Below, piece by piece: positions 650-29,412 of a stretch of 64,000 nt of DNA; within the stretch, counting starts at the first letter, position 1; each line of letters opens with the position of its first letter. Below the pieces are notes generated by a model. It was given only the letters and a program-made list of their open reading frames with translations. It was not told the origin of the DNA and made no database searches. The position numbers and the translations under genes were made by a program. This stretch comes from Escherichia coli O157:H7. GTDB lineage: Bacteria > Pseudomonadota > Gammaproteobacteria > Enterobacterales > Enterobacteriaceae. The stretch is from the NCBI RefSeq assembly GCF_013167455.1, contig NZ_CP038328.1; one strand, 5' to 3'.

Positions 650-1903
650 TCAGGCGTGCAGACGACGATGCAAACGCGTCCCGACCAGCAGAGCAATGAC
701 CAGCATCAGAGCAATAAATGCGCCGACGCCGTTCCAGCCATAGTTATGCCAGAAAACACCACCCAGCGTCCCGGCAATACTCGACCCCAGATAGTAACTG
801 AACAGATACAGCGAGGAGGCCTGGCCTTTAGCGCGTTTTGCGCGGGGGCCGATCCAGCTGCTGGCAACTGAGTGGGCTGCGAAGAATCCTGCTGAGAAGA
901 GTAACATTCCGGCAAAGATCAGCCACAGCGAGCTGAATAAGGTCATCAGTAAACCAAACAGCATAACCCCCGTCGAAAACAACATCACTGGACCACGCCC
1001 ATAGCGGGTGGTCATGGTTCCGGCTTTGGGTGAGCTCCATGTACCGGTCAAATAAGCCAGCGATAATAAGCCAACCACGGCCTGACTGACATGCCAGGGG
1101 GAGAGCATCAACCGATAGCCGATGTAATTAAACAGCGTGACGAACGACCCCATCAGCAAAAAGCCTTCTGCGAACAATAACGGTAATCCCCGGTCACGCC
1201 AGTGCAGACGAAAGTTGATAAACAACGACTTAGGTCGCAGCGAAGTCGGGCGAAAATGGCGTGATTCCGGGAGGATTTTCCAGAACATCAACGCCGAGGC
1301 TAGCGCGAAACAACCGATAGCCGCCAGAGCAATTCGCCAGTTGAAAAAGTCCGTGAAGACACCACTAATTAAGCGTCCGCTCATGCCGCCAATTGAGTTG
1401 CCGCTGATATACAACCCCATCGAAAAGGCCACGAAACTGGGGTGGATTTCCTCGCTAAGATAAGTCATGCCAACAGCTGCCACGCCACTTAACGAAAGCC
1501 CAATCAAGGCGCGCATAATCAAAATGCCGTGCCAGCTGGTCATCATTGTCGAAAGTAACGTACAAATGGAGGCCAATAGTAGCGCCGTTACCATCACTGG
1601 TTTGCGACCAATGGCATCGGATAGGGGGCCAGTAAACAGCAAACCAATAGCCAACATCGCCGTGGAAATGGACAGTGAAATACTACTGTTCGCGGGCGTT
1701 AAGCCAAACTCCTGCGAAAGCACCGGAAGGATAGGTTGCACACAATAGAGAAGTGCAAATGTTGCCAGTCCGGCAGAGAACAGCGCCAGGGTGACGCGCA
1801 TAAATTGCGGCGTACCGCGTTTAATAAATTGATTTGGCTGAGAAATGCTTTGCTTGTCAGTGTCGCTTGCCGGAGCGCCATCAACAGTTGTAGTACGGCT
1901 CAC
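650..1903 (-). CDS. ynfM: MFS-family inner membrane transporter YnfM
   Basis: 417-aa ORF, multi-TM hydrophobic profile; synteny asr-ynfM-ynfL-mlc as in E. coli K-12. Confidence 0.85.
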   Translation of the reverse strand: MSRTTTVDGAPASDTDKQSISQPNQFIKRGTPQFMRVTLALFSAGLATFALLYCVQPILPVLSQEFGLTPANSSISLSISTAMLAIGLLFTGPLSDAIGRKPVMVTALLLASICTLLSTMMTSWHGILIMRALIGLSLSGVAAVGMTYLSEEIHPSFVAFSMGLYISGNSIGGMSGRLISGVFTDFFNWRIALAAIGCFALASALMFWKILPESRHFRPTSLRPKSLFINFRLHWRDRGLPLLFAEGFLLMGSFVTLFNYIGYRLMLSPWHVSQAVVGLLSLAYLTGTWSSPKAGTMTTRYGRGPVMLFSTGVMLFGLLMTLFSSLWLIFAGMLLFSAGFFAAHSVASSWIGPRAKRAKGQASSLYLFSYYLGSSIAGTLGGVFWHNYGWNGVGAFIALMLVIALLVGTRLHRRLHA

Positions 1904-2009
1904 TTGAAATCCTTGCTAAATATGCCTGTGGATCAGGCTTATACATAGGTTAGGAAAATCGAATTGTTCTGTCTAATATATTAATAATCTCAAATAAGAT
2001 GTTTTAAAT

Positions 2010-2903
2010 ATGAATATTGAACTTCGTCATCTGCGTTACTTTGTTGCTGTTGCGGAAGAGCTGCATTTCGGGCGCGCCGCTGCCCGCCTGAATATTTCGC
2101 AACCGCCGCTAAGTCAGCAGATTCAGGCGCTGGAGCAACAAATTGGTGCCCGACTGCTGGCACGAACCAATCGCAGTGTATTGCTGACGGCAGCAGGAAA
2201 ACAGTTTCTTGCAGATAGTCGGCAAATCCTGTCTATGGTGGATGACGCTGCCGCTCGCGCTGAAAGACTGCATCAGGGTGAAGCGGGGGAGTTGCGCATT
2301 GGTTTTACTTCGTCGGCTCCTTTTATTCGGGCGGTGTCCGATACGTTATCGCTGTTTCGCCGAGATTATCCCGATGTCCATTTACAAACCCGCGAAATGA
2401 ACACTCGCGAGCAAATCGCTCCGCTCATTGAAGGAACGCTGGATATGGGATTGCTGCGTAACACAGCGTTACCGGAGACGCTTGAACACGCAGTCATCGT
2501 CCATGAACCGCTTATGGCGATGATCCCGCACGATCATCCCCTGGCAAATAACCCGAATGTAACGCTGGCTGAACTGGCGAAAGAACCCTTTGTCTTTTTT
2601 GATCCGCACGTCGGGACAGGGCTGTATGACGATATTCTCGGGCTGATGCGACGTTACCATTTGACGCCCGTCATCACTCAGGAGGTGGGCGAGGCAATGA
2701 CCATCATCGGTCTGGTTTCCGCCGGTCTGGGTGTTTCAATTTTGCCTGCGTCATTTAAACGTGTTCAGCTCAACGAAATGCGCTGGGTGCCGATTGCTGA
2801 AGAGGATGCGGTTTCTGAAATGTGGTTGGTCTGGCCGAAACATCATGAACAAAGTCCAGCTGCGCGTAACTTTCGTATTCATCTGCTGAATGCTCTCAGG
2901 TGA
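2010..2903 (+). CDS. ynfL: LysR-family transcriptional regulator YnfL
   Basis: 297 aa with N-terminal LysR HTH (MNIELRHLRYFVAVAEELHFGRAA...); divergent from ynfM. Confidence 0.85.
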   Translation: MNIELRHLRYFVAVAEELHFGRAAARLNISQPPLSQQIQALEQQIGARLLARTNRSVLLTAAGKQFLADSRQILSMVDDAAARAERLHQGEAGELRIGFTSSAPFIRAVSDTLSLFRRDYPDVHLQTREMNTREQIAPLIEGTLDMGLLRNTALPETLEHAVIVHEPLMAMIPHDHPLANNPNVTLAELAKEPFVFFDPHVGTGLYDDILGLMRRYHLTPVITQEVGEAMTIIGLVSAGLGVSILPASFKRVQLNEMRWVPIAEEDAVSEMWLVWPKHHEQSPAARNFRIHLLNALR

Positions 2904-3037
2904 GGGAAATTTCAGCGAAAAAGCCCGAAAAATGTGCTGTTAATCACATGCCTAAGTAAAAATTTGACGACACGTATTGAAGTGCTTCACCATAGCCTAC
3001 AGATTATTTCGGAGCGCGAAAATATAGGGAGTATGCG

Positions 3038-4258
3038 GTGGTTGCTGAAAACCAGCCTGGGCACATTGATCAAATAAAGCAGACCAACGCGGGCGCGGTT
3101 TATCGCCTGATTGATCAGCTTGGTCCAGTCTCGCGTATCGATCTTTCCCGTCTGGCGCAGCTGGCTCCTGCCAGTATCACTAAAATTGTCCGTGAGATGC
3201 TCGAAGCACACCTGGTGCAAGAGCTGGAAATCAAAGAAGCGGGGAACCGTGGCCGTCCGGCGGTGGGGCTGGTGGTTGAAACTGAAGCCTGGCACTATCT
3301 TTCTCTGCGCATTAGTCGCGGGGAGATTTTCCTTGCTCTGCGCGATCTGAGCAGCAAACTGGTGGTGGAAGAGTCGCAGGAACTGGCGTTAAAAGATGAC
3401 TCGCCATTGCTGGATCGTATCATTTCCCATATCGATCAGTTTTTTATCCGCCACCAGAAAAAACTTGAGCGTCTAACTTCGATTGCCATAACCCTGCCGG
3501 GAATTATTGATACGGAAAATGGCATTGTACATCGCATGCCGTTCTACGAGGATGTAAAAGAGATGCCGCTCGGCGAGGCTCTGGAGCAGCATACCGGCGT
3601 TCCGGTTTATATTCAGCATGATATCAGCGCATGGACGATGGCAGAGGCCTTGTTTGGTGCCTCACGCGGGGCGCGCGATGTGATTCAGGTGGTTATCGAT
3701 CACAACGTGGGGGCGGGCGTCATTACCGATGGTCATCTGCTACACGCAGGCAGCAGTAGCCTCGTGGAAATAGGTCACACACAGGTAGACCCATATGGTA
3801 AACGCTGTTATTGCGGGAACCACGGCTGCCTCGAAACCATCGCCAGTGTGGACAGTATTCTTGAGCTGGCACAGCTGCGTCTCAATCAATCCATGAGCTC
3901 GATGTTACATGGGCAACCGTTAACCGTGGACTCATTGTGTCAGGCGGCATTGCGCGGCGATCTGCTGGCAAAAGACATCATTACCGGGGTGGGCGCGCAT
4001 GTAGGACGCATTCTTGCCATCATGGTGAATTTATTTAACCCACAAAAAATACTGATTGGCTCACCGTTAAGTAAAGCGGCAGATATCCTCTTCCCGGTCA
4101 TCTCAGATAGCATCCGTCAGCAGGCCCTTCCTGCGTATAGTCAGCACATTAGCGTTGAGAGTACTCAGTTTTCTAACCAGGGCACGATGGCAGGGGCTGC
4201 GCTGGTAAAAGACGCGATGTATAACGGTTCTTTGTTGATTCGTCTGTTGCAGGGTTAA
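3038..4258 (+). CDS. mlc: Mlc (DgsA), ROK/NagC-family global repressor of PTS genes
   Basis: 406-aa ORF beginning MVAENQPGHIDQIKQTNAGAVYRLIDQ..., matching recalled Mlc; C-terminal zinc motif CYCGNHGCLE. Confidence 0.9.
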   Translation: MVAENQPGHIDQIKQTNAGAVYRLIDQLGPVSRIDLSRLAQLAPASITKIVREMLEAHLVQELEIKEAGNRGRPAVGLVVETEAWHYLSLRISRGEIFLALRDLSSKLVVEESQELALKDDSPLLDRIISHIDQFFIRHQKKLERLTSIAITLPGIIDTENGIVHRMPFYEDVKEMPLGEALEQHTGVPVYIQHDISAWTMAEALFGASRGARDVIQVVIDHNVGAGVITDGHLLHAGSSSLVEIGHTQVDPYGKRCYCGNHGCLETIASVDSILELAQLRLNQSMSSMLHGQPLTVDSLCQAALRGDLLAKDIITGVGAHVGRILAIMVNLFNPQKILIGSPLSKAADILFPVISDSIRQQALPAYSQHISVESTQFSNQGTMAGAALVKDAMYNGSLLIRLLQG

Positions 4259-21958: not shown

Positions 21959-22017
21959 CAAACACAACGCTTTTGATAAAGTCGTTGCGGTTGTTATGTT
22001 TCTATTGGTAGTGAAAG

Positions 22018-22296
22018 TTAGGGAAACTGGCGTCTTGCGTGGATCACGTTTACTACTTCAACGCTTGATGTTGTTACGCGGTATAGAATTATATAGTTAG
22101 GGTGGGCTACAATCTCACGCAAGCCAGGTACTCTGTCGCTTGGTGGGTATAAATACGGATGTTCGGATAACGGCAGCACACAACCCCTTAATCGCTGCCA
22201 TAAGCGTTCAGCCGCATCTATGTCGAAACGAGCAATATAACTAGTTATATCATCTAGGTCGGTATCTGCGCTTTCAAGCCATAACACGGGTAACAT
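22018..22296 (-). CDS. ParE/RelE-superfamily type II toxin
   Basis: About 93 aa from MLPVLWLESADTD... to ...EIVAHPNYIILYRVTTSSVEVVNVIHARRQFP, a typical ParE/RelE C-terminus; start overlaps the stop of the upstream small ORF. Confidence 0.6.
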   Translation of the reverse strand: MLPVLWLESADTDLDDITSYIARFDIDAAERLWQRLRGCVLPLSEHPYLYPPSDRVPGLREIVAHPNYIILYRVTTSSVEVVNVIHARRQFP

Positions 22297-22297
22297 T

Positions 22298-22489
22298 TTA
22301 CTGCTTGCTCCGTTCCTTGCGCATCTTAGCAAAGCGTTCTGCCATTCTGCGCTCAACTTCGTCATGGGGAATTGCTGGGCGCGGATCTGCAAGGCTCGTT
22401 GCTACTTTCGCACGCAGCCATTCGTTGTAACTGTTTTCTTGTTCAATGGTTTCAAATTCAGAAACCATTGGTGAAAGGGCTCTATTCAT
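22298..22489 (-). CDS. Putative antitoxin (ParD-like) paired with the ParE-like toxin
   Basis: Small acidic/basic protein MNRALSPMVSEFETIEQENSYNEWLRAKVATSLADPRPAIPHDEVERRMAERFAKMRKE; stop is 1-2 nt from the toxin start. Confidence 0.5.
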   Translation of the reverse strand: MNRALSPMVSEFETIEQENSYNEWLRAKVATSLADPRPAIPHDEVERRMAERFAKMRKERSKQ

Positions 22490-22509
22490 GTTTCCTCCGG
22501 TTTTATAAC

Positions 22510-22881
22510 TCAGGCGCGGCGGCATTTTTGCGCCGCAATCCATCTCGCTATGAGATCTTCCATTGATTCTTTTTTCTGCTTTAACTCGCTGATTATCTGG
22601 CGTTGCTCATCCTCAGGGAAGGCTGAAAAAATCTGCAATAATTCCAGTTGATTAGACGTTAACCCTGCATGTGGTGGAGAACCCCCCGGTTGTTCTGCGT
22701 ATTCCGCATCCAGATACCCTTCCGGCATCCCGTATGTTTGCTCTATTCTTCTGGCAGCCTTTTCTCCAAACGAGGCTCTCCCACTCATTAGTTGAGATAG
22801 GTAGCTCTTCTCTTTGGGTGGCAGAGTTTTATCTTTAAACCACTCCTTGAGACGTAAACGGCGAATTTCTTTTTTTTGCAT
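22510..22881 (-). CDS. dicA: DicA-like (P22 C2 / lambda cI analog) prophage repressor with XRE-type HTH
   Basis: Architecture parallels recalled DicA (C-terminal ...LTSNQLELLQIFSAFPEDEQRQII... vs DicA LSPKELELLELFNALPESEQ); divergent from the cro-like gene. Confidence 0.65.
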   Translation of the reverse strand: MQKKEIRRLRLKEWFKDKTLPPKEKSYLSQLMSGRASFGEKAARRIEQTYGMPEGYLDAEYAEQPGGSPPHAGLTSNQLELLQIFSAFPEDEQRQIISELKQKKESMEDLIARWIAAQKCRRA

Positions 22882-22893
22882 GTGGTAATTATC

Positions 22894-22968
22894 TTTAGTA
22901 ATCACTAAACAAGCAAATACTTGACTTAATGGTTTATTAAACACTAAACTCGCAAAAAAACACTAAAC
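22894..22968. promoter_or_regulatory. Repressor/cro intergenic operator-promoter region with three CACTAAAC-containing sites
   Basis: CACTAAAC at 22903-22910, 22942-22949 and 22961-22968; palindromic TTTAGT-N4-ACTAAA at 22894-22909; TTGACT -35-like hexamer at 22921-22926. Confidence 0.5.
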
Positions 22969-22978
22969 CGAGGAAGGT

Positions 22979-23281
22979 ATGACATTAAAAGAGTTTATTA
23001 AATCATTAAGGGTTGGTGATGCTAAGAAATTCGCGGCCAGACTTGGTGTATCGCCATCTTACTTATCGCAAATGGCGTCTGGACGAACAGCTATATCTCC
23101 AACCCGCGCCCTTATGATCGAATCTGCGACGGAAGGCCAAGTAAGTAGGGCGGAGCTACGACCCCATGATTGGGAGCTTATTTGGCCTGAGTATGCGAGC
23201 GGCATTCGTTTGGGGCAAACACATGTAGTTCATGCTGAAGGTGATTGTAGTGCATGCTTATCTGATGGAGTTGATTCATGA
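22979..23281 (+). CDS. Cro-like (DicC/YdaS-like) HTH regulator
   Basis: N-terminal HTH (ARLGVSPSYLSQMASGRTAISPTRALMIESAT); first rightward gene across from the repressor. Confidence 0.6.
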   Translation: MTLKEFIKSLRVGDAKKFAARLGVSPSYLSQMASGRTAISPTRALMIESATEGQVSRAELRPHDWELIWPEYASGIRLGQTHVVHAEGDCSACLSDGVDS

Positions 23282-23703
23282 AAATCAAGCATGAACACAT
23301 CCGCATGGCGATGAATGTCTGGGCGCATCCGGACGGCGAAAAAGTACCGGCTGCGAAAATTACCAAAGCGTATTTCGAGCTGGGAATGACGTTCCCGGAA
23401 CTGTATGACGACAGCCATCCGGAAGCCCTGGCCCGTAATACCCAGAAAATTTTCCGTTGGCTGGATAAAGACACCCCTGATGCTGTTGAAAAAATGCAGG
23501 CTCTGTTACCGGCGATCGAAAAGGCGATGCCGCCTTTGCTGGTGGCCCGTATGCGCAGCCACAGTTCTGAATATTACCGTGAGATCGTCGAACGGAGGGA
23601 TCGGCTGGTGAAGGATGTCGATGATTTTGTTGCGTCAGCGGTTGTTTTGTATGACCAGATGAATCGCGGCGGCCCGGCAGGGAATGCTGTGGTGATGCAC
23701 TAA
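23278..23703 (+). CDS. YdaT-like / CII-like phage regulatory protein
   Basis: 141-aa protein following cro with ATGA overlap; position and size match Rac YdaT; family assignment from memory. Confidence 0.45.
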   Translation: MKIKHEHIRMAMNVWAHPDGEKVPAAKITKAYFELGMTFPELYDDSHPEALARNTQKIFRWLDKDTPDAVEKMQALLPAIEKAMPPLLVARMRSHSSEYYREIVERRDRLVKDVDDFVASAVVLYDQMNRGGPAGNAVVMH

Positions 23704-23710
23704 AAGCACG

Positions 23711-24688
23711 GTGTTCGGGGGTTTTATGAGCAGCAAGCTTCATGGTCTTGTCTGGGAAGGGTGCGCCTTCACCGGCATGATCTTATCCAGGGTGGCGGTT
23801 ATGGCCCGTCTTGCAGACTACAGCAATGACGAGGGCGTGTCATGGCCTGCCATTGAAACTATCCGGCGTCAGATCGGTGCAAGAAGTGAATCCACAGTGA
23901 AATCGGCTATTGCAGAACTGGCGAAAGAGGGCTGGCTGACGAAGGAAGAGCGTAAGGTCGGTGGGCGTAATGTAAGCAATATCTATCGGCTTAATGTGGA
24001 AAAACTCGAAGCAGCTGCTGCGGCGGCGCGTGAGTCATATAAACCGAAAAGAAAAATTAGCCCGGCAAAAAATGACCCGTTAACAGTTGCCCCGTCAAAT
24101 ATTGCCCCCTCAACGGTTGACCCGTCAAATTTTGATGGATCAACTGTTGATAACAAACTGCCGATTAGGGGGGCGATGATTGACCCCGATCCGTCAGTAT
24201 TAAAACCTGATCCGTCAGATAAAAGATCTTCTTGTCCGGACGCTTCGCAACCGGACCCGCAGACGGCTGAACAGAATTTTTTAACCCGACACCCTGACGC
24301 GGTTGTGTTCAGTGCGAAAAAACGCCAGTGGGGAAGTCAGGAAGATTTGGTGTGCGCACAGTGGATCTGGGGACGAATCGTGAGTCTTTACGAGCAGGCG
24401 GCCAGCGATGATGGCGAGATCACGAGACCGAAAGAACCCAACTGGACTGCATGGGCCAATGACGTGCGGACAATGCGGATGCTGGATGGCAGAACTCACA
24501 GACAAATTTGTGAAATGTTTGGGCGTCTCCAGCGGGATTCGTTCTGGGTAAAAAACATCATGAGTCCGGCAAAACTCCGGGAAAAATGGGATGAACTGGT
24601 TATCCGCCTGGGGCGTTCGCCCGCGCAGCGTTGCGTGAATCACATTTCTGAACCGGACACTGAAATACCGCCGGGATTCAGGGGGTGA
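23711..24688 (+). CDS. Phage replication initiator (YdaU / O-like) with N-terminal winged-helix domain
   Basis: N-terminal ...MARLADYSNDEGVSWPAIETIRRQIGARSESTVKSAIAELAKEGWL... then P/S/D-rich linker; sits before the DnaC-like loader. Confidence 0.55.
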   Translation: MFGGFMSSKLHGLVWEGCAFTGMILSRVAVMARLADYSNDEGVSWPAIETIRRQIGARSESTVKSAIAELAKEGWLTKEERKVGGRNVSNIYRLNVEKLEAAAAAARESYKPKRKISPAKNDPLTVAPSNIAPSTVDPSNFDGSTVDNKLPIRGAMIDPDPSVLKPDPSDKRSSCPDASQPDPQTAEQNFLTRHPDAVVFSAKKRQWGSQEDLVCAQWIWGRIVSLYEQAASDDGEITRPKEPNWTAWANDVRTMRMLDGRTHRQICEMFGRLQRDSFWVKNIMSPAKLREKWDELVIRLGRSPAQRCVNHISEPDTEIPPGFRG

Positions 24689-24694
24689 CGTGTC

Positions 24695-25435
24695 ATGAAA
24701 AACATTGCGGCAGTTGGGGTTCTTGAACGTATTCGCAGACTTGCACCACAGGGGGCGGTTCCACCGTACCGGACGGTGGAGGAGTGGCGGGAATGGCAAC
24801 TTGCTGAAGGACGAAAACGCAGCGAGGAGATTAACCGCCTGAATCATCAGGTGCGGGTTGAAAAAATCCTGAACCGTGCGGGCATCCAGCCGCTTCACAG
24901 GAAGTGCTCATTCGGGAACTACCGGGTGCAGAACGACGGTCAGCGCCATGCTCTGAGCCAGGCGAAATCCATTGCCGATGAATTGATGACCGGATGTACA
25001 AACTTCGTGTTCAGCGGTAAACCTGGTACCGGTAAAAATCACCTGGCAGCAGCGATTGGCAATCGGCTGATGGCGAAGGGGAGAAGCGTGATTATCGTCA
25101 CCGTGTCCGATGTCATGAGCGTGTTGCATGACGGCTACGACAACGGCCAGTCCGGGGAAAAATTTTTACAGGAGCTTTGTGGAGTTGACCTTCTGGTCCT
25201 TGATGAAATTGGCATGCAGCGGGATACGCGCAACGAGCAGGTCACGCTGAACCAGATAGTCGACCGCAGAACGGCTTCGATGCGTAGTGTCGGAATGCTG
25301 ACGAACCTGAATCACGCAGCGATGAGCACACTCCTCGGAGATCGGGTGATGGACCGTATGACCATGAATGGTGGTCGTTGGGTGAATTTTAACTGGGAGA
25401 GCTGGCGGTCAAACGTTGGACGTCAGGGTATGTGA
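24695..25435 (+). CDS. DnaC-like helicase loader (IstB-type AAA+ ATPase; lambda P functional analog)
   Basis: Walker A GKPGTGKNHLAAAIG and Walker B LLVLDEIG; 246 aa as for Rac YdaV. Confidence 0.75.
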   Translation: MKNIAAVGVLERIRRLAPQGAVPPYRTVEEWREWQLAEGRKRSEEINRLNHQVRVEKILNRAGIQPLHRKCSFGNYRVQNDGQRHALSQAKSIADELMTGCTNFVFSGKPGTGKNHLAAAIGNRLMAKGRSVIIVTVSDVMSVLHDGYDNGQSGEKFLQELCGVDLLVLDEIGMQRDTRNEQVTLNQIVDRRTASMRSVGMLTNLNHAAMSTLLGDRVMDRMTMNGGRWVNFNWESWRSNVGRQGM

Positions 25436-25460
25436 GAATTTTTGACGAGGTAAATTTTCG

Positions 25461-26230
25461 ATGGAAACTGTATTGCATGCACTGAAAGCGATGGGAAAAG
25501 CCAATTCTGTTGAACTGGCGGCGCGGCTTGATATCAGCCGTGAAGAAGTTCTTAACGAACTGTGGGAACTCAAAAAAATGGCGTTGTTGATAAAACGGGT
25601 CACACCTGGTTTCTGGCTGTCGAAGGTGAAGCCGGGGTAACCGAAGGGCAGGCACTACAACCTGAAGCGCCGGATGTGGTAACCGAAGAGGTCGCTCCAA
25701 AAGTTACCGCAGACATGATGGTTGAGTTTATCGGTCAGGATGGTGCTAAAACGTGTGAGGAACTGGCGGGTAAGTTCGGCGTCAGTACTCGCAAGGTTGC
25801 TTCCACGCTGGCGGTGGTAACCGCAACGGGGCGGCTGGCACGCGTTAATCAGAACGGTAAATTTCGTTACTGCATGTCGGGGGGTAATTTACCAGCAGAT
25901 CCGAAAGCCGCGCCGGTAACGAAAAATGATGGTAAGGCCTTTCCTCAGCCAGCAGGTGCTGCGTTACCAGTCCGGGAAGCCGCAACACAGGAAGAAATTA
26001 AAACAGAAACTGTGGCGGACATTGTGCAGCCGTTGCCATCGTTTACCGAAACGCAAGCAGATGAGCTGATTTTTCCGTCCCTGCGCAGGGCAAACCTGGC
26101 GCTGCGCAGGGCGAAAAGTGATGTTCAGAAGTGGGAGCGAGTCTGCGCCGCGCTGCGGGAGCTGAACAAGCACCGGGATATTGTTCGACAGATTACTGAT
26201 TCTTCCCGCCGTGTTGTATCGGAAAAGTGA
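25461..26230 (+). pseudogene. Hypothetical phage protein interrupted by a frameshift in an A7 run (25573-25579)
   Basis: Frame A (ATG 25461, [39 protein letters not shown]...) stops after 59 codons; frame B continues ...[18 protein letters not shown]... to 26230; one extra A would fuse them. Confidence 0.45.
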
Positions 26231-26245
26231 TAGCCGGAGGCGCTT

Positions 26246-26641
26246 ATGGCGAAACCTTTTACACACGAACAGCGTGAAGAACTGAAGGCCCGAATTATCG
26301 GGCTGGTACGCAAAAATGAACGCATGACGATATCACAACTGGAGAGAGCGACGGGAGCAGGCTGGCATTCAGTCAGACGTTGCCTTGTGGATGTACTGGC
26401 TTGTGGCGATTTATACATGCCCGGTAAATACGGTGTTTTTACATCAGAACAGGTGTATCGCGTATGGCGTAAGGCAGCGGAGAAAGCAACCGACCAGACA
26501 TTGATTCGAAAGTTACCAGACGGAGAAATACGCCGCTACGACAGACAACAGAACATAATCTGTGGCGAGTGCCGGAAGAGTGAAGTTATGCTGCGTGTAC
26601 TGGCGTTCTATCAGGGCAATTTTCAGGAGGCGGTACTGTGA
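26246..26641 (+). CDS. Hypothetical phage protein
   Basis: 131-aa ORF with RBS; no recognisable motif except a CGEC pair. Confidence 0.4.
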   Translation: MAKPFTHEQREELKARIIGLVRKNERMTISQLERATGAGWHSVRRCLVDVLACGDLYMPGKYGVFTSEQVYRVWRKAAEKATDQTLIRKLPDGEIRRYDRQQNIICGECRKSEVMLRVLAFYQGNFQEAVL

Positions 26642-27282
26642 GTGAATTAGCTATCAGGCTTCAATTGTCGCTGGCATTCGCATCAAAGGAGAATGAGATG
26701 ACCACTTTTACAAAAGAGCAGTTAATCAGTCATGTTAGTGAAAATGTAAAGGCGATGAAATTTGCAGTAAAACAGACAGCATTCAAAAATTCTCTCGAGG
26801 CAATTGAGTTGGATTTAGCACTGGCCCTTGTTGCTCAGGCTTCGCTGGAAGCAGAGCCCGTGCTTTATATGAATCGATTTACCGGAAAGACATTCTCACT
26901 GGAAGAGCAACCCGGTGCTGATAAGGAACCGGAAATATACGTGCCGCTATATGCTGCCCCGCCAGACAGCGCCGCCATGCTTCAGGCTGGAAACTTTCGG
27001 GAAAAAAAGGGTTCGTCAACCAATAATTTTCGGGAAATCTCGGAAACGTCAACCAACTATCCGGTAACTCTGGATGATTGGATAAGCTGTAGTGAGCGAA
27101 TGCCGGATGATGGTCAGCACGTAATTATTTTATGTGATGGCGCATTCGTTCTTTATGCGCAATATCGAGACGGTGAGTTTTTTGATGTAGTCCGTAATGG
27201 TGATGAATTTTTCGAAACACAGAGCCGCAATGTAACCGACTGGATGCCGCTACCAGAACCGCCGCAGGAGGTGCGCCAATGA
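26638..27282 (+). CDS. Hypothetical phage protein with DUF551-like C-terminus
   Basis: C-terminal ...WISCSERMPDDGQHVIILCDG...WMPLPEPP resembles the DUF551 signature (from memory). Confidence 0.4.
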   Translation: MSELAIRLQLSLAFASKENEMTTFTKEQLISHVSENVKAMKFAVKQTAFKNSLEAIELDLALALVAQASLEAEPVLYMNRFTGKTFSLEEQPGADKEPEIYVPLYAAPPDSAAMLQAGNFREKKGSSTNNFREISETSTNYPVTLDDWISCSERMPDDGQHVIILCDGAFVLYAQYRDGEFFDVVRNGDEFFETQSRNVTDWMPLPEPPQEVRQ

Positions 27283-27362
27283 TCTGGCCTGAAGCCTTTG
27301 CAATTACAGGCGTTGCTATAGCTATTGATTTTTTAGTATATGTTATTTGTCGGTGGGGGTAA
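27279..27362 (+). CDS. Candidate 27-aa hydrophobic micropeptide
   Basis: ATG overlaps the upstream stop (ATGA); MIWPEAFAITGVAIAIDFLVYVICRWG is one predicted TM helix. Confidence 0.25.
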   Translation: MIWPEAFAITGVAIAIDFLVYVICRWG

Positions 27363-27397
27363 AAACGTTCGCCGGGATTCACACCAAAGGAGGGAAT

Positions 27398-27502
27398 ATG
27401 TCGGATGATATTTCACTGGCAATGGAAGGTGCGCTGGCTGTTATTGCTGTTGTGGGCGTTTACTGCCTGGTTGTGTTTTTGATGGATCGACTAGGGAACT
27501 GA
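27398..27502 (+). CDS. Candidate 34-aa single-TM micropeptide
   Basis: Strong RBS AAAGGAGGGAAT before ATG; MSDDISLAMEGALAVIAVVGVYCLVVFLMDRLGN. Confidence 0.3.
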   Translation: MSDDISLAMEGALAVIAVVGVYCLVVFLMDRLGN

Positions 27503-27510
27503 ATTCATTA

Positions 27511-27532
27511 CGATATGGGAATTCCCATATCG
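27511..27532. repeat. Perfect 22-bp palindrome CGATATGGGAATTCCCATATCG
   Basis: Exact reverse-complement symmetry, seen directly; lies between the micropeptide ORF and the hok locus. Confidence 0.9.
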
Positions 27533-27639
27533 GGTAAAAACGGTTTGCGGTAAAGCGAGAGTTAAGTAGAATTGCTGCGGGTGCTTGAGGCTGTCTGCCT
27601 CGGGCATGCCACCGTAAGGCAGACAGAGAAAAGCCCCAG

Positions 27640-27710
27640 TTAACATTACGCGTCCTGCAAGACGCCTAACATTAATCTGAGGCCAATTTCATGCTAGACA
27701 CATGTAGGTT
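27640..27710 (-). ncRNA. sok: Predicted Sok-like antisense RNA region (position inferred, not mapped)
   Basis: Inferred from hok/sok architecture: antisense to the mok translation-initiation region; boundaries not determined. Confidence 0.25.
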
Positions 27711-27903
27711 AGCCTCTTACGCGCCGAAAGGCAAGGAGAAGCAGGCTATGAAGCAGCAAAAGGCGATGTTAATCGCCCTGATCGTCATCTGTATTACCGT
27801 CATAGTGACGGCACTGGTAACGAGGAAAGACCTCTGCGAGGTACGAATCCGAACCGGCCAGACGGAGGTCGCTGTCTTCACAGCTTACGAACCTGAGGAG
27901 TAA
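27691..27903 (+). CDS. mok: mok (modulator of killing) reading frame overlapping hok
   Basis: ORF MLDTCRLASYAPKGKEKQA... in the hok frame, starting upstream of hok as in hok/sok loci. Confidence 0.55.
   Translation: MLDTCRLASYAPKGKEKQAMKQQKAMLIALIVICITVIVTALVTRKDLCEVRIRTGQTEVAVFTAYEPEE
27748..27903 (+). CDS. hokD: Hok-family type I toxin (HokD/RelF-like)
   Basis: MKQQKAMLIALIVICITVIVTALVTRKDLCEVRIRTGQTEVAVFTAYEPEE, near-identical to recalled HokD. Confidence 0.85.
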   Translation: MKQQKAMLIALIVICITVIVTALVTRKDLCEVRIRTGQTEVAVFTAYEPEE

Positions 27904-27973
27904 GAGACCCGGCGAGGGAGAAATCCCTCGCCACCTCTGATGAATCAGGCATCCTCAACGCACCCGCACTTAA

Positions 27974-27998
27974 CCCGCTTCGGCGGGTTTTGTTTTTT
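27974..27998 (+). terminator. Intrinsic terminator after hok
   Basis: CCCGCTTCGGCGGG hairpin followed by TTTTGTTTTTT. Confidence 0.6.
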
Positions 27999-28070
27999 CC
28001 TGGCATTCTGGTTTACAATTCGCACGCCAGCCTGAACAACTGGCACCTGCTGCGCCAGCAGAGACAACCG

Positions 28071-28349
28071 ATGGCGCACGATACCAAATTATACAATTCT
28101 GATGATTCTGCCGTCTTTGCCAGCAGGCGCGGACGGTGTTTTTACGCATTCAAATCTGACTGGTACCAGCATCCCCCATGCACTGAAGAACAGGCCGAAT
28201 GGCTCATTCAGTGTTACCGCAGGCGCGGATGCGAGGTTAAAAAAGCCCTTAGCCTCGACTACCGTCACTGGATAATCTCCGTCAGGCTCCCTTACTCCGA
28301 ACGGCCACCGCGTCCGTCCCGCACATTCCAGCAACGGATCTGGAGGTAA
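28071..28349 (+). CDS. Hypothetical protein (Rem-like position between hok and ydfU)
   Basis: ORF from MAHDTKLYNSDDSAVF...; weak RBS; identity unverified. Confidence 0.3.
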   Translation: MAHDTKLYNSDDSAVFASRRGRCFYAFKSDWYQHPPCTEEQAEWLIQCYRRRGCEVKKALSLDYRHWIISVRLPYSERPPRPSRTFQQRIWR

Positions 28350-28350
28350 T

Positions 28351-29400
28351 GTGCGGGTATTACTTCGACCTGTTCTGGTACCGGAACTCGGTCTGGTTAT
28401 CGTTAAGCCAGGCCGTGAATCAATGTCAGCATTCCATAACGGCAGAATACTGGTGGAGCCGGAACCAAAAAGCATGCGAGCTCTGCCGTCCGGGGTTGTA
28501 CCTGCCGTTCACCAGCCGCTGGCGGAAGATAAATCACTACTGCCATTTTTCAGCGATGAGCGGGTGATCCGTGCTGCGGGTGGCGCTGGTGCACTGTCTG
28601 ACTGGTTATTACGTCACGTGAAATCCTGCCAGTGGCTACACGGTGATTATCATCACAGCGAAACCGTCATTCACCGTTACGGTACCGGCGCGATGGTGTT
28701 GTGCTGGCACTGCGACAACCAGCTGCGGGAGCAGACATCTGATTCACTGGATCAACTTGCTCAACAGAATCTGGCCGCCTGGATGATTGACATCATCCGT
28801 CACGCAATGAATGGCGCACAGGAGCGTGAATTATCTCTGGCTGAATTATCCTGGTGGGCGGTCCGCAATCAGGTGGCGGACGCGCTACCGGAAGCGGTAT
28901 TACGTCGTTCGCTGGGGTTGCGTGCGGAAAAAATCCGCTCCGTATACCGTGAAAGCGACATCATACCGGGAGAACAGACCGCCACCAGCATACTGAAGCA
29001 GCGCACAAAAAATATTGCGCTACCGCCTCACACCCACCAGCAACAGAACCCACCACAGGAAAAGACGGTGGTCAGCATTGCCGTTGATCTGGAGTCTCCG
29101 GAATCCTTCATGAAACGACCTAAACGTCGCCGCTGGGTAAATGAGAAATACACACGCTGGGTAAAGACACAGCCGTGTGCGTGTTGTGGTAAGCCAGCGG
29201 ACGATCCTCATCATCTGATTGGTCATGGTCAGGGCGGAATGGGAACAAAATCCCACGATATTTTCACGCTACCGCTGTGTCGGGAGCATCACAACGAGCT
29301 TCATGCGGATCCGCTGGCGTTCGAAGAAAAGCATGGTTCCCAGGTTGATTTAATTTTTCGTTTTCTTGATCACGCCTTTGCAACCGGCGTGCTCGGGTAA
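28351..29400 (+). CDS. ydfU: YdfU-like DUF968 protein with C-terminal HNH-like zinc motif
   Basis: GTG start with GGAGG RBS; 349 aa; C-terminal CACCGKPADDPHHLIGHG...LCREHHNELH. Confidence 0.65.
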   Translation: MRVLLRPVLVPELGLVIVKPGRESMSAFHNGRILVEPEPKSMRALPSGVVPAVHQPLAEDKSLLPFFSDERVIRAAGGAGALSDWLLRHVKSCQWLHGDYHHSETVIHRYGTGAMVLCWHCDNQLREQTSDSLDQLAQQNLAAWMIDIIRHAMNGAQERELSLAELSWWAVRNQVADALPEAVLRRSLGLRAEKIRSVYRESDIIPGEQTATSILKQRTKNIALPPHTHQQQNPPQEKTVVSIAVDLESPESFMKRPKRRRWVNEKYTRWVKTQPCACCGKPADDPHHLIGHGQGGMGTKSHDIFTLPLCREHHNELHADPLAFEEKHGSQVDLIFRFLDHAFATGVLG

Positions 29401-29412
29401 AAGAGGTTACTG

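What the first reader, a model, noticed from the sequence alone, without database searches (positions are those of the whole stretch)
27640..27998. Apparently intact hok/mok type I toxin locus
The Hok sequence is full length with the overlapping mok frame and a downstream terminator. I did not map the antisense Sok RNA, so whether the locus is an active post-segregational killer is open.
Basis: partly seen in the sequence, partly recalled or inferred. Interest (0 to 1): 0.35.

Follow-up and report, generated by a model that had tools for sequence, protein, structure and literature searches.

The report
Intact prophage hok/mok/sok toxin-antitoxin locus
This is a complete copy of the well-known hok/sok "killer peptide plus antisense RNA" module in an E. 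coli O157:H7 prophage; it is ordinary, and is the un-truncated form of the K-12 gene hokD.

Summary
A 51-aa Hok ORF (27748-27903; Pfam HOK_GEF E=1e-23), an in-frame 70-codon mok ORF (27691-27903) and an intrinsic terminator (27972-27998) are all present. The locus starts earlier than reported, with the promoter at 27544-27572 and mRNA +1 at 27579. Rfam RF01794 matches 27579-27753 (116.9 bits), but on the hok-sense strand, so that hit is evidence for the leader and not for Sok.

I mapped Sok to 27699->27629 on the minus strand, by homology to the annotated sokW of phage 933W. Its -35 TTGCCT and -10 TAACCT hexamers, 17 nt apart, are identical to those of the experimentally validated sokW promoter. 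The tac, ucb, fbi and 3' stem-loop elements are all present, and I found no disruptive change.

The DNA is 100% identical to many O157:H7 chromosomes, where it is annotated hokD. K-12 hokD matches only from 27734 onward, so K-12 lost the leader and this copy keeps it.

Activity as a killer remains untested for this copy.

Side finding: the Sok 5' tail and its target block (27684-27699) are about 28-fold more diverged between paralogues than adjacent synonymous sites, while the hairpin is preserved. This may be a specificity cassette, but that is unproven.

The parts
27544..27572 (+). hok promoter: -35 TTTGCG (27544-27549), 17-nt spacer, -10 TAGAAT (27567-27572); +1 falls 7 nt downstream at 27579
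   Evidence: Read from the sequence. The TAGAAT box and a TTGNCN-like -35 at fixed spacing persist in loci whose upstream flanks are otherwise unrelated. It falls below the consensus scanner's threshold, as expected for a weak promoter.
27579..27997 (+). full-length hok mRNA, about 419 nt
   Evidence: The 5' end coincides with the start of Rfam RF01794 and with the conserved GGGTGCTTGAGG. The 3' end is the intrinsic terminator. MFE is -176.7 kcal/mol, z = -7.1 against shuffles.
27579..27592 (+). tac (translational activator element), GGGUGCUUGAGGCU
   Evidence: It pairs with fbi in the MFE fold and in the consensus fold of 61 of 62 relatives. It is also complementary to ucb, -18.5 kcal/mol.
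27591..27627 (+). 5' stem-loop next to tac
   Evidence: MFE fold. Alignment pair 15/63 shows A-U in 49 sequences, G-C in 10 and U-A in 1, which is compensatory.
27629..27699 (-). Sok antisense RNA, 71 nt: a 15-nt single-stranded 5' tail (GUCUAGCAUGAAAUU), a long hairpin, then a U-run
   Evidence: Coordinates transferred from the annotated sokW of phage 933W, whose 5' end is mok ATG+8 and whose 3' end is ATG-62, with no indels between the two loci. The fold is -31.3 kcal/mol; a slightly longer stretch gave z = -5.1. Expression was not tested.
27706..27734 (-). sok promoter: -35 TTGCCT (27734..27729), 17-nt spacer, -10 TAACCT (27711..27706)
   Evidence: The hexamers are identical to sokW (primer YO-597), whose -10 mutation abolished antitoxin activity. 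The 17-nt spacer holds in all but one of 25 promoter variants, a variant with a 1-nt deletion beside the -10 box.
27679..27716 (+). mok translation-initiation hairpin, which is the Sok target: the mok SD GAGGC (27679-27683) pairs with the anti-SD GCCUC (27712-27716), with the mok AUG inside the stem
   Evidence: Structure line of the Rfam alignment. Per-allele folds give -11.5 to -15.9 kcal/mol, and the hairpin is kept in all 20 alleles.
27684..27699 (.). hypervariable block: the Sok 5' tail and its complementary target
   Evidence: Entropy 0.94 bits against a locus mean of 0.17. Pairwise difference 0.36 per site against 0.013 at hok four-fold degenerate sites.
27691..27903 (+). mok ORF, 70 codons, in frame with hok
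   Evidence: The same layout is annotated as mokW/hokW in 933W.
27711..27725 (+). ucb (upstream complementary box, the mok anti-SD), AGCCUCUUACGCGCC
   Evidence: Complementary both to the mok SD and to tac. Element definitions taken from PMC9841398.
27733..27738 (+). hok Shine-Dalgarno AAGGAG, 9 nt before the hok ATG
27748..27903 (+). hok CDS, 51 aa
   Evidence: Pfam HOK_GEF E=9.7e-24. Identical to K-12 HokD at 50 of 51 residues, to HokW at 46 of 51, and to R1-type Hok at 22 of 52. Annotated hokD in RefSeq.
27911..27932 (+). 3' UTR stem-loop GGCGAGGGA-GAAA-UCCCUCGCC, the likely protective 3' end of the processed (truncated) mRNA
   Evidence: MFE and consensus folds; alignment pair 363/376 shows AU 28, GU 27, GC 6, CG 1. 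The role is inferred from R1.
27953..27965 (+). fbi (fold-back inhibitory element), CCUCAACGCACCC
   Evidence: Twelve base pairs with tac and one bulged C, -21.5 kcal/mol; 12 of 1000 shuffled 3' UTRs do as well. The element is retained in K-12 hokD.
27972..27998 (+). rho-independent terminator of the hok mRNA

Best explanation
The locus 27544-27998 is a sequence-intact hok/mok/sok type I toxin-antitoxin module of the hokD/hokW subfamily. It lies between the replication genes and the Q antiterminator gene of the lambdoid prophage at the ynfA (Qin) site of E. coli O157:H7.

Likely mechanism, inferred from plasmid R1 hok/sok and from hokW-sokW:
- A weak promoter produces a roughly 419-nt hok mRNA that is locked shut by 5'-3' pairing (tac/fbi), with the mok Shine-Dalgarno held by the anti-SD (ucb).
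- Slow 3' trimming back to the 27911-27932 stem-loop removes fbi. tac can then pair with ucb and free the mok SD.
- A 71-nt Sok RNA, transcribed from the minus strand (27699->27629), uses its 15-nt single-stranded 5' tail to bind the mok start hairpin. This blocks mok translation and, by coupling, hok translation, and marks the duplex for RNase III.
- When Sok synthesis stops (loss of the element, transcription shut-off, prophage induction), the stable mRNA is translated and the 51-aa Hok peptide depolarises the inner membrane.

Shown here: every sequence element and its conservation. Inferred: transcription, processing, toxicity and biological role. The role is most likely tied to the prophage, either lysis assistance on induction, as shown for hokW, or prophage addiction.
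For: - Protein and RNA family matches: Pfam HOK_GEF at E=1e-23, PHROG 251 and Rfam RF01794 at 116.9 bits over the whole model.
- Identity: 100% identical to O157:H7 chromosomes, where it is annotated hokD.
- Relation to the characterised paralogue: 91% nucleotide identity to the 933W/Sp5 hokW-sokW locus, which carries annotated mokW, hokW and sokW and was shown experimentally to be a type I TA system with a mapped sok promoter. The sok -35 and -10 hexamers and the spacer length here are identical to it.
- mRNA fold: the tac/fbi end-pairing appears in the MFE fold (z=-7.1) and in the consensus of 61 of 62 relatives; tac/ucb is -18.5 kcal/mol.
- Conservation: the mok SD/anti-SD hairpin is kept in all 20 alleles through compensating changes. 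Both promoters are conserved across diverged flanks.
- Toxin: Hok is identical to K-12 HokD at 50 of 51 residues.
- Transcription of sister copies: RNA-seq reads cover the equivalent leaders of other copies in EDL933.
Against: - There are no expression or toxicity data for this copy. Its sequence is absent from the EDL933 transcript table.
- The consensus promoter scan finds neither promoter.
- The MFE fold of the 3'-truncated mRNA pairs tac with 27630-27637 rather than with ucb, so the refolding step is not reproduced by thermodynamic prediction alone.
- Chromosomal hokA, hokB and hokC loci that look intact failed to mediate post-segregational killing (reported in the preprint read).
- The integrase of the near-identical prophage in strain PA20 is a frameshifted pseudogene, so 'loss of the element' may be rare.
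Confidence: 0.88

Rival explanations
1. It is a silent relic. The module is intact in sequence but physiologically inert: it gives no post-segregational killing and no effect on induction, and is carried passively in a defective prophage, like the chromosomal hok loci of K-12 and ECOR strains.
For: [quoted passage not shown] The integrase of the near-identical PA20 prophage is frameshifted. There is no transcript evidence for this copy.
Against: All regulatory elements are conserved and compensated across 150 phage-borne loci, which implies purifying selection on the whole device. The 91%-identical hokW-sokW is functional.
Confidence: 0.2
2. Its main role is abortive infection or phage exclusion. 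An infecting lytic phage shuts off host transcription, Sok decays, Hok kills the cell early, and the superinfecting phage's yield falls.
For: [quoted passage not shown]
Against: hok genes are not enriched next to defence systems. The one prophage copy that has been studied helped its own phage's release rather than blocking phages. Nothing was tested here.
Confidence: 0.15
3. The Rfam 'sok' hit on the plus strand marks a plus-strand sRNA called Sok, so the antitoxin lies at 27579-27753 (+) rather than on the minus strand.
For: Rfam names RF01794 'sok antitoxin', and the hit is on the plus strand.
Against: The model starts with the tac sequence and ends at the hok AUG, so it describes the hok mRNA leader. 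The 933W record annotates sokW on the strand opposite to mokW/hokW. The sokW probe and promoter primers in PMC8621323 agree with that orientation.
Confidence: 0.01

Closest known systems
hokW-sokW (with mokW) of Stx2 prophage Sp5 / phage 933W, E. coli O157:H7
   Same: The architecture is the same from tac to fbi. Nucleotide identity is 91% over 437 nt and Hok identity is 46 of 51 residues. The mok ORF is in frame and 70 codons long. The sok -35 and -10 hexamers and the 17-nt spacer are identical. The Sok hairpin is the same length.
   Different: The Sok tail and target block differs (CAATTTCATGCTAGAC here, TCAATCCATGCTGAAC in hokW); the cross duplex is -9.7/-12.5 kcal/mol against -23/-26 for cognate pairs. 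There are five Hok substitutions, four of them within the last seven residues. The sequence after fbi is different in 933W. In the 933W record hokW lies near the right end of the genome (58.4 of 61.7 kb), whereas this copy lies between the replication genes and Q. Only hokW has experimental data.
hokD (relF) of the cryptic prophage Qin, E. coli K-12
   Same: Both lie in a prophage at the same chromosomal site, with ynfA, dicB, DicF and ydfC nearby. Hok identity is 50 of 51 residues, and DNA identity is 97% from the hok SD to the terminator, including fbi. RefSeq gives this locus the same gene name.
   Different: K-12 homology begins only at window position 27734. K-12 has the relB-relE genes directly upstream and lacks the hok promoter, tac, the 5' hairpin, the mok start, the Sok target, ucb and both sok promoter hexamers. 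The window therefore holds the un-rearranged form. The downstream ORF here is unrelated to K-12 rem.
hok/sok (parB) of plasmid R1, represented here by an R1-type IncFII plasmid copy (L002)
   Same: All named elements are present in the same order: tac, 5' hairpin, Sok hairpin, mok SD/anti-SD hairpin, sok promoter with a 17-nt spacer, hok SD, 3' stem-loop, fbi and terminator. The tac/fbi pairs differ in a matched way: each tac binds its own fbi better than the other's (-21.5 and -17.0 kcal/mol for cognate pairs, -15.6 and -13.4 for crossed pairs).
   Different: Hok shares only 22 of 52 residues. The Sok hairpin here carries an extra 18-nt GC-rich tip (27649-27666) relative to the Rfam consensus. 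The R1 locus is plasmid-borne with proven post-segregational killing; this one is prophage-borne and untested.
Ibs/Sib type I toxin-antitoxin paralogues of E. coli (precedent for the side finding only)
   Same: Several near-identical cis-antisense TA copies sit in one genome, and their target-recognition domains lie in hypervariable regions that confer cognate-only repression (PMC2943612). Here the Sok recognition tail is the hypervariable part.
   Different: It is a different toxin family and a different RNA layout. Discrimination was shown by experiment for Sib and only inferred for Sok here. In addition, two EDL933 copies share one tail allele.

Membership tests
[quoted passage not shown] | Small hydrophobic Hok/Gef toxin ORF of about 50 aa | tested here: met
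   51-aa ORF at 27748-27903; Pfam PF01848 at E=9.7e-24 over the full profile; PHROG 251 at E=2.8e-33.
[quoted passage not shown] | Leader ORF mok with its own SD, overlapping the hok start so that hok translation is coupled to it | tested here: met
   ATG at 27691 with GAGG 8 nt upstream; the ORF stays open through the hok start and is in frame. Coupling itself was not tested.
[quoted passage not shown] | cis-encoded antisense Sok gene opposite the mok initiation region, with a promoter and a terminator hairpin | tested here: met
   Minus-strand -35 TTGCCT, 17-nt spacer, -10 TAACCT, identical to the validated sokW promoter. The 71-nt RNA has a 15-nt tail, a hairpin of -31.3 kcal/mol and a U-run. 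Coordinates are homologous to the annotated sokW.
[quoted passage not shown] | Long-range 5'-3' pairing (tac/fbi) that closes the full-length mRNA | tested here: met
   Twelve base pairs, -21.5 kcal/mol, present in the MFE and consensus folds. Both strands are near-invariant within the subfamily, with no double-sided change, so there is no covariation there. The comparison with R1 shows matched differences.
[quoted passage not shown] | ucb/anti-SD that can pair either with the mok SD or with tac (the refolding switch) | tested here: inconclusive
   Both complementarities exist: the SD/anti-SD hairpin is kept in all alleles and tac/ucb is -18.5 kcal/mol. However, the MFE fold of the 3'-truncated RNA does not adopt tac/ucb. 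Kinetic or experimental probing is needed.
[quoted passage not shown] | Match to the curated RNA model of the hok leader (Rfam RF01794) | tested here: met
   116.9 bits against a gathering score of 59, covering model positions 1-157.
[quoted passage not shown] | Sok RNA is expressed, Hok is toxic, and Sok neutralises it | not testable with these tools
   This has been shown only for the paralogue hokW-sokW. This copy is not in the EDL933 transcript table.
Post-segregational killing system (plasmid R1 parB sense) | Killing of cells that lose the element: stable mRNA, unstable Sok, 3' processing | not testable with these tools
   No data exist for this copy. Other chromosomal hok loci failed this test.
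K-12-type hokD (relBE-hokD operon arrangement) | hok preceded directly by relE, with no leader, mok or sok | tested here: not met
   The window keeps the full leader. K-12 homology starts only at 27734. The RefSeq name 'hokD' therefore reflects protein identity, not the K-12 arrangement.

The most novel reading that the evidence does not exclude
The 16-nt Sok 5' tail and its target (27684-27699, with the matching hairpin arm to 27705) may be a fast-evolving specificity cassette. Among phage-borne hokD/hokW loci that are otherwise at least 87% identical (most over 91%), it differs at 0.36 per site, against 0.013 at adjacent synonymous sites. The hairpin is always preserved, at least 20 alleles exist, and non-cognate tail duplexes are weak (mean -8.8 against -24.6 kcal/mol). 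That pattern would fit diversifying or frequency-dependent selection that stops one prophage's Sok from disarming another prophage's Hok, as with the Sib/Ibs recognition domains. It would make each of the 12-14 hok modules of an O157:H7 genome largely private. The recent Hok survey states that it did not analyse Sok, Mok or mRNA elements.
Probability: 0.3. Interest if true: 0.45.

Novelty: already known. Interest (0 to 1): 0.2.

Why it matters
For annotation, RefSeq marks only a 'hokD' CDS here. The mok ORF, the Sok RNA and the mRNA fold elements are unannotated. The Rfam 'sok' hit lies on the hok-sense strand, so it is easy to misread.

For biology, O157:H7 carries 12-14 hok genes, mostly in prophages. 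One of them, hokW, halves Stx2 phage release when it is deleted. Knowing that the Qin-site copy is complete, unlike the K-12 hokD used as the reference, identifies it as a candidate contributor to prophage stability, lysis timing or phage exclusion in EHEC.

The variable Sok tail, if it really sets specificity, would explain how so many near-identical killer modules coexist in one cell.

Tried and rejected
1. The consensus sigma-70 scan of 27400-28150 found no promoter. Both promoters score only 7-8 of 12 against consensus, so I located them by homology and conservation instead.
2. Folding 3'-truncated mRNAs (3' ends 27951 to 27905) to see the tac/ucb switch did not work. The MFE fold pairs tac with 27630-27637, which resembles the reported metastable 5' hairpin, and not with ucb. 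I left this as inconclusive.
3. RNAalifold on the 62-sequence alignment did not recover the mok-start hairpin, because indels in the variable block disturb the alignment. Folding each allele separately did recover it.
4. Covariation support for tac/fbi cannot be obtained within this subfamily, because both strands are near-invariant with no double-sided change. Only the comparison with R1 is informative.
5. Co-occurrence test of the insulation idea: none of 10 same-genome locus pairs share a tail allele, but the chance probability of that outcome is 0.39, so it is not significant. In addition, sok_6 and sok_10 of EDL933 share one allele, which counts against strict insulation.
6. I tried to fetch all EDL933 copies using the coordinates published by Neuhaus 2017. 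Those refer to NC_002655, which is not in the collection, and the newer assembly has different coordinates.
7. I looked for this copy's leader in the EDL933 RNA-seq table and it is absent.
8. I tested whether the downstream 92-aa ORF is K-12 rem. There is no similarity, so I make no gene-by-gene synteny claim downstream.
9. A YUNR U-turn motif is present in the window's target loop (CUAG), but by eye it is not present in all alleles, so I did not use it as evidence.

Full report
**Observation**

The window holds a 51-aa ORF at 27748-27903 that matches Pfam HOK_GEF (E=9.7e-24, whole profile) and PHROG 251 'MokW-like host killing' (E=2.8e-33). An upstream ATG at 27691 opens a 70-codon ORF in the same frame, with a GAGG Shine-Dalgarno 8 nt upstream. 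A 7-bp GC-rich hairpin followed by a T-run lies at 27972-27998. Rfam RF01794 matches 27579-27753 at 116.9 bits (gathering score 59, E=5.9e-26).

One correction is needed. The locus begins upstream of the reported start: the mRNA 5' end is at 27579 and its promoter lies at 27544-27572. The interval 27640-27998 cuts through the Sok hairpin and omits the tac element.

**Origin and context**

The 451 nt around the locus are 100% identical to many E. coli O157:H7 chromosomes, where the CDS is annotated hokD. A 12-kb stretch (22000-34000) is also 100% identical to O157:H7 strains such as OK1 and ATCC 43888.

In the 99%-identical region of strain PA20, the locus lies in a lambdoid prophage next to ynfA. 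The gene order is:
- integrase (a pseudogene in PA20), excisionase, exonuclease, dicB, ydfC;
- a RelE/ParE toxin, regulator and YdaT genes, replication genes;
- DUF1627, DUF977, DUF551 and a 34-aa ORF;
- hokD;
- a 92-aa ORF, DUF968, RusA, Q, tRNAs and the lysis genes.

This is the site of the cryptic prophage Qin in K-12. The window holds only this one hok copy.

**Relation to K-12 hokD**

Hok here is identical to K-12 HokD at 50 of 51 residues. However, the DNA homology with K-12 starts only at 27734, which is the hok Shine-Dalgarno, and runs to the terminator (97% identity).

Upstream of that point K-12 has relE. K-12 therefore keeps fbi and the terminator but lacks the hok promoter, tac, the mok start, the Sok target, ucb and the sok promoter. 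The window holds the un-rearranged form of this gene. Five loci from the viral collection have the K-12-type truncation.

**Mapping Sok**

The Rfam hit is on the plus strand. Its model begins with the tac sequence and ends at the hok AUG, so it describes the hok mRNA leader and is not direct evidence for the antisense RNA.

The record for phage 933W annotates sokW on the strand opposite to mokW/hokW, from mok ATG+8 to ATG-62. The window and 933W have no indels in that stretch, so Sok maps to 27699->27629 on the minus strand.

Upstream on that strand lie -35 TTGCCT (27734..27729), a 17-nt spacer and -10 TAACCT (27711..27706). Both hexamers are identical to the sokW promoter as given by primer YO-597 in PMC8621323; the spacer differs at one base. 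In that paper, mutating the -10 box abolished protection against HokW, and sokW RNA was seen on northern blots. The hexamers and the 17-nt spacer are conserved across all but one of the 25 promoter variants I examined.

The predicted 71-nt RNA has a 15-nt single-stranded 5' tail, a long hairpin (-31.3 kcal/mol) and a U-run. Relative to the Rfam consensus, the hairpin carries an extra 18-nt GC-rich tip at 27649-27666.

**mRNA fold elements**

I used the definitions in PMC9841398.
- tac (27579-27592) pairs with fbi (27953-27965) through 12 base pairs with one bulge (-21.5 kcal/mol). Only 12 of 1000 shuffled 3' UTRs do as well.
- This end-pairing appears in the MFE fold of the 419-nt RNA (-176.7 kcal/mol, z=-7.1) and in the consensus fold of 61 of 62 relatives.
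- Both strands are near-invariant in this subfamily, so there is no covariation. In the R1-type plasmid copy, however, tac and fbi differ together: each tac binds its own fbi better than the other's.
- The mok SD (GAGGC) pairs with the anti-SD/ucb (GCCUC, 27712-27716) in a hairpin that is kept in all 20 alleles. tac is also complementary to ucb (-18.5 kcal/mol).
- A 9-bp stem-loop at 27911-27932, which shows compensatory changes, is the likely 3' end of the processed mRNA.
- The refolding step itself is not reproduced by MFE prediction: the truncated RNA pairs tac with 27630-27637 instead. I rate that feature inconclusive.
- The hok promoter (-35 TTTGCG, 17-nt spacer, -10 TAGAAT, +1 at 27579) is conserved even where the upstream flanks are unrelated.

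I found no disruptive change.

**How it most likely works**

It most likely works as in R1 and hokW:
1. The full-length mRNA is closed and inert.
2. 3' trimming removes fbi and the leader opens.
3. Sok binds the mok start hairpin through its 5' tail. This blocks mok translation and, through coupling, hok translation.
4. When Sok synthesis stops, Hok is made and depolarises the membrane.

These steps are inferred; only the sequence elements are shown here. For the biological role, the only data on a prophage copy are for hokW. There, sokW disappears and HokW appears after mitomycin C in a RecA-dependent way, and deleting the locus halves phage release. Chromosomal hokA, hokB and hokC failed post-segregational killing tests, so an inert state cannot be excluded. 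R1 hok/sok can also exclude T4.

This copy points the same way as the early genes and Q. Read-through transcription during induction could therefore interfere with the convergent sok promoter. That is speculation.

**Side finding: a hypervariable Sok tail**

In 62 aligned mRNAs (window, 57 loci from IMG/VR, Rac, 933W, P1 and an R1-type plasmid), nearly every column is at least 90% conserved, with one exception: 27684-27699. That block is the Sok 5' tail and its target.
- Its entropy is 0.94 bits against a mean of 0.17.
- Its mean pairwise difference is 0.36 per site. The comparison values are 0.013 at hok four-fold degenerate sites and 0.03-0.14 in other non-coding parts.
- There are 20 distinct blocks, and each keeps the hairpin.
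- Cognate tail/target duplexes average -24.6 kcal/mol, and non-cognate ones average -8.8.
- The mok ORF also varies between alleles: 70 aa in frame, 68 aa out of frame, or 19 aa ending in an ATGA overlap with the hok start. This fits the view that what matters is translation of mok rather than the Mok peptide.

The pattern resembles the Sib/Ibs recognition domains, which lie in hypervariable regions and give cognate-only repression.

The evidence for selection is weak, however. None of 10 same-genome pairs share an allele, but the chance probability of that outcome is 0.39. In addition, two EDL933 copies (sok_6 and sok_10) share one allele. The loci were chosen by Hok protein identity, and synonymous sites in hok may themselves be constrained by mRNA structure. 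The recent Hok survey did not analyse Sok, Mok or mRNA elements.

**Novelty and verdict**

The kind of system is textbook. This exact sequence is already annotated (as hokD) in hundreds of genomes. O157:H7 is known to carry 12-14 hok genes, and a 91%-identical paralogue has been characterised. I rate it 'already known' with low interest.

This analysis adds five things:
- the full extent of the locus (27544-27998);
- the Sok coordinates and promoter;
- the point that this copy is the intact counterpart of the truncated K-12 hokD;
- a caution about the strand of the Rfam hit;
- the hypervariable Sok tail as a lead.

There is no direct transcript evidence for this copy, so whether it is active remains open.

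Noticed in passing
window 27579-27753 (+): The Rfam RF01794 'sok antitoxin' model matches the hok-sense strand. It runs from the tac sequence to the hok AUG, so it models the hok mRNA leader rather than the roughly 70-nt Sok RNA. Annotating Sok from this hit would put it on the wrong strand and make it too long.
   Followed up: yes
window 27684-27705; alignment A1: The Sok 5' tail / mok-start hairpin block is hypervariable among otherwise at least 87% identical (mostly over 91%) phage-borne hok loci: 0.36 differences per site against 0.013 at adjacent four-fold degenerate sites. There are at least 20 alleles and the hairpin is always preserved. It is a possible specificity cassette, but the within-genome co-occurrence test was not significant, and two EDL933 copies share an allele.
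   Followed up: partly
loci L017, L050, L085, L086 compared with window 27691-27903: The mok ORF architecture differs between alleles: 70 aa in frame with hok (the window, 933W), 68 aa out of frame (Rac, P1), or a 19-aa ORF whose TGA stop overlaps the hok ATG (ATGA; 11 loci). All three forms still drive ribosomes into the hok start region.
   Followed up: partly
window 27734 onward, compared with K-12 L003: K-12 hokD is homologous only from the hok SD to the terminator and still retains an orphan fbi element. Five loci in the viral collection (L005, L025, L057, L062, L082) share this truncated, relE-linked arrangement.
   Followed up: yes
window 27886-27889 (Tyr47 codon TAC followed by G); also 27842-27845: A TACG motif falls at the Tyr47 codon of hok. 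[quoted passage not shown] A second TACG spans Val32/Arg33, where editing would be synonymous. Editing was not assessed here.
   Followed up: no
window 27398-27502 and 27511-27532: A 34-aa ORF with a hydrophobic C-terminal half (MSDDISLAMEGALAVIAVVGVYCLVVFLMDRLGN; no Pfam or PHROG match; annotated as hypothetical in PA20) sits just upstream of the hok promoter. It is followed by a perfect 22-nt palindrome, CGATATGGGAATTCCCATATCG. The function of both is unknown.
   Followed up: no
window 27649-27666: There is an 18-nt insertion relative to the Rfam consensus and R1. It adds a GC-rich tip (GCGUCU-UGCA-GGACGC on the Sok strand) to the Sok terminator hairpin. Loci L050 and L076 lack it.
   Followed up: partly
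window 20682-20733 (-), about 20319-20507, about 22018-22296 (-): The same prophage carries DicF sRNA (76.7 bits), dicB, a RelE/ParE-family toxin gene and a YdaT-family gene. It therefore holds several growth-inhibiting modules besides hok. The last three coordinates are transferred from the PA20 annotation and are approximate.
   Followed up: no
window 30669-30918 and 31692-31864: Downstream of Q lie three tRNA genes (anticodons CAT, TCG, TCT) and an STnc100 sRNA match (101.8 bits). PGAP annotates only two of the tRNAs in PA20, calling the CAT one tRNA-Ile. This is the arrangement typical of O157 lambdoid prophages.
   Followed up: no
EDL933 sok_6, sok_10, sok_14 (supplement of PMC5331693): Published RNA-seq shows 934 to 3663 reads with low ribosome coverage over the hok leaders of sister copies. 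sok_14 has the window's 5' hairpin joined to a different tail allele, which suggests that recombination shuffles the tail block between backgrounds.
   Followed up: partly
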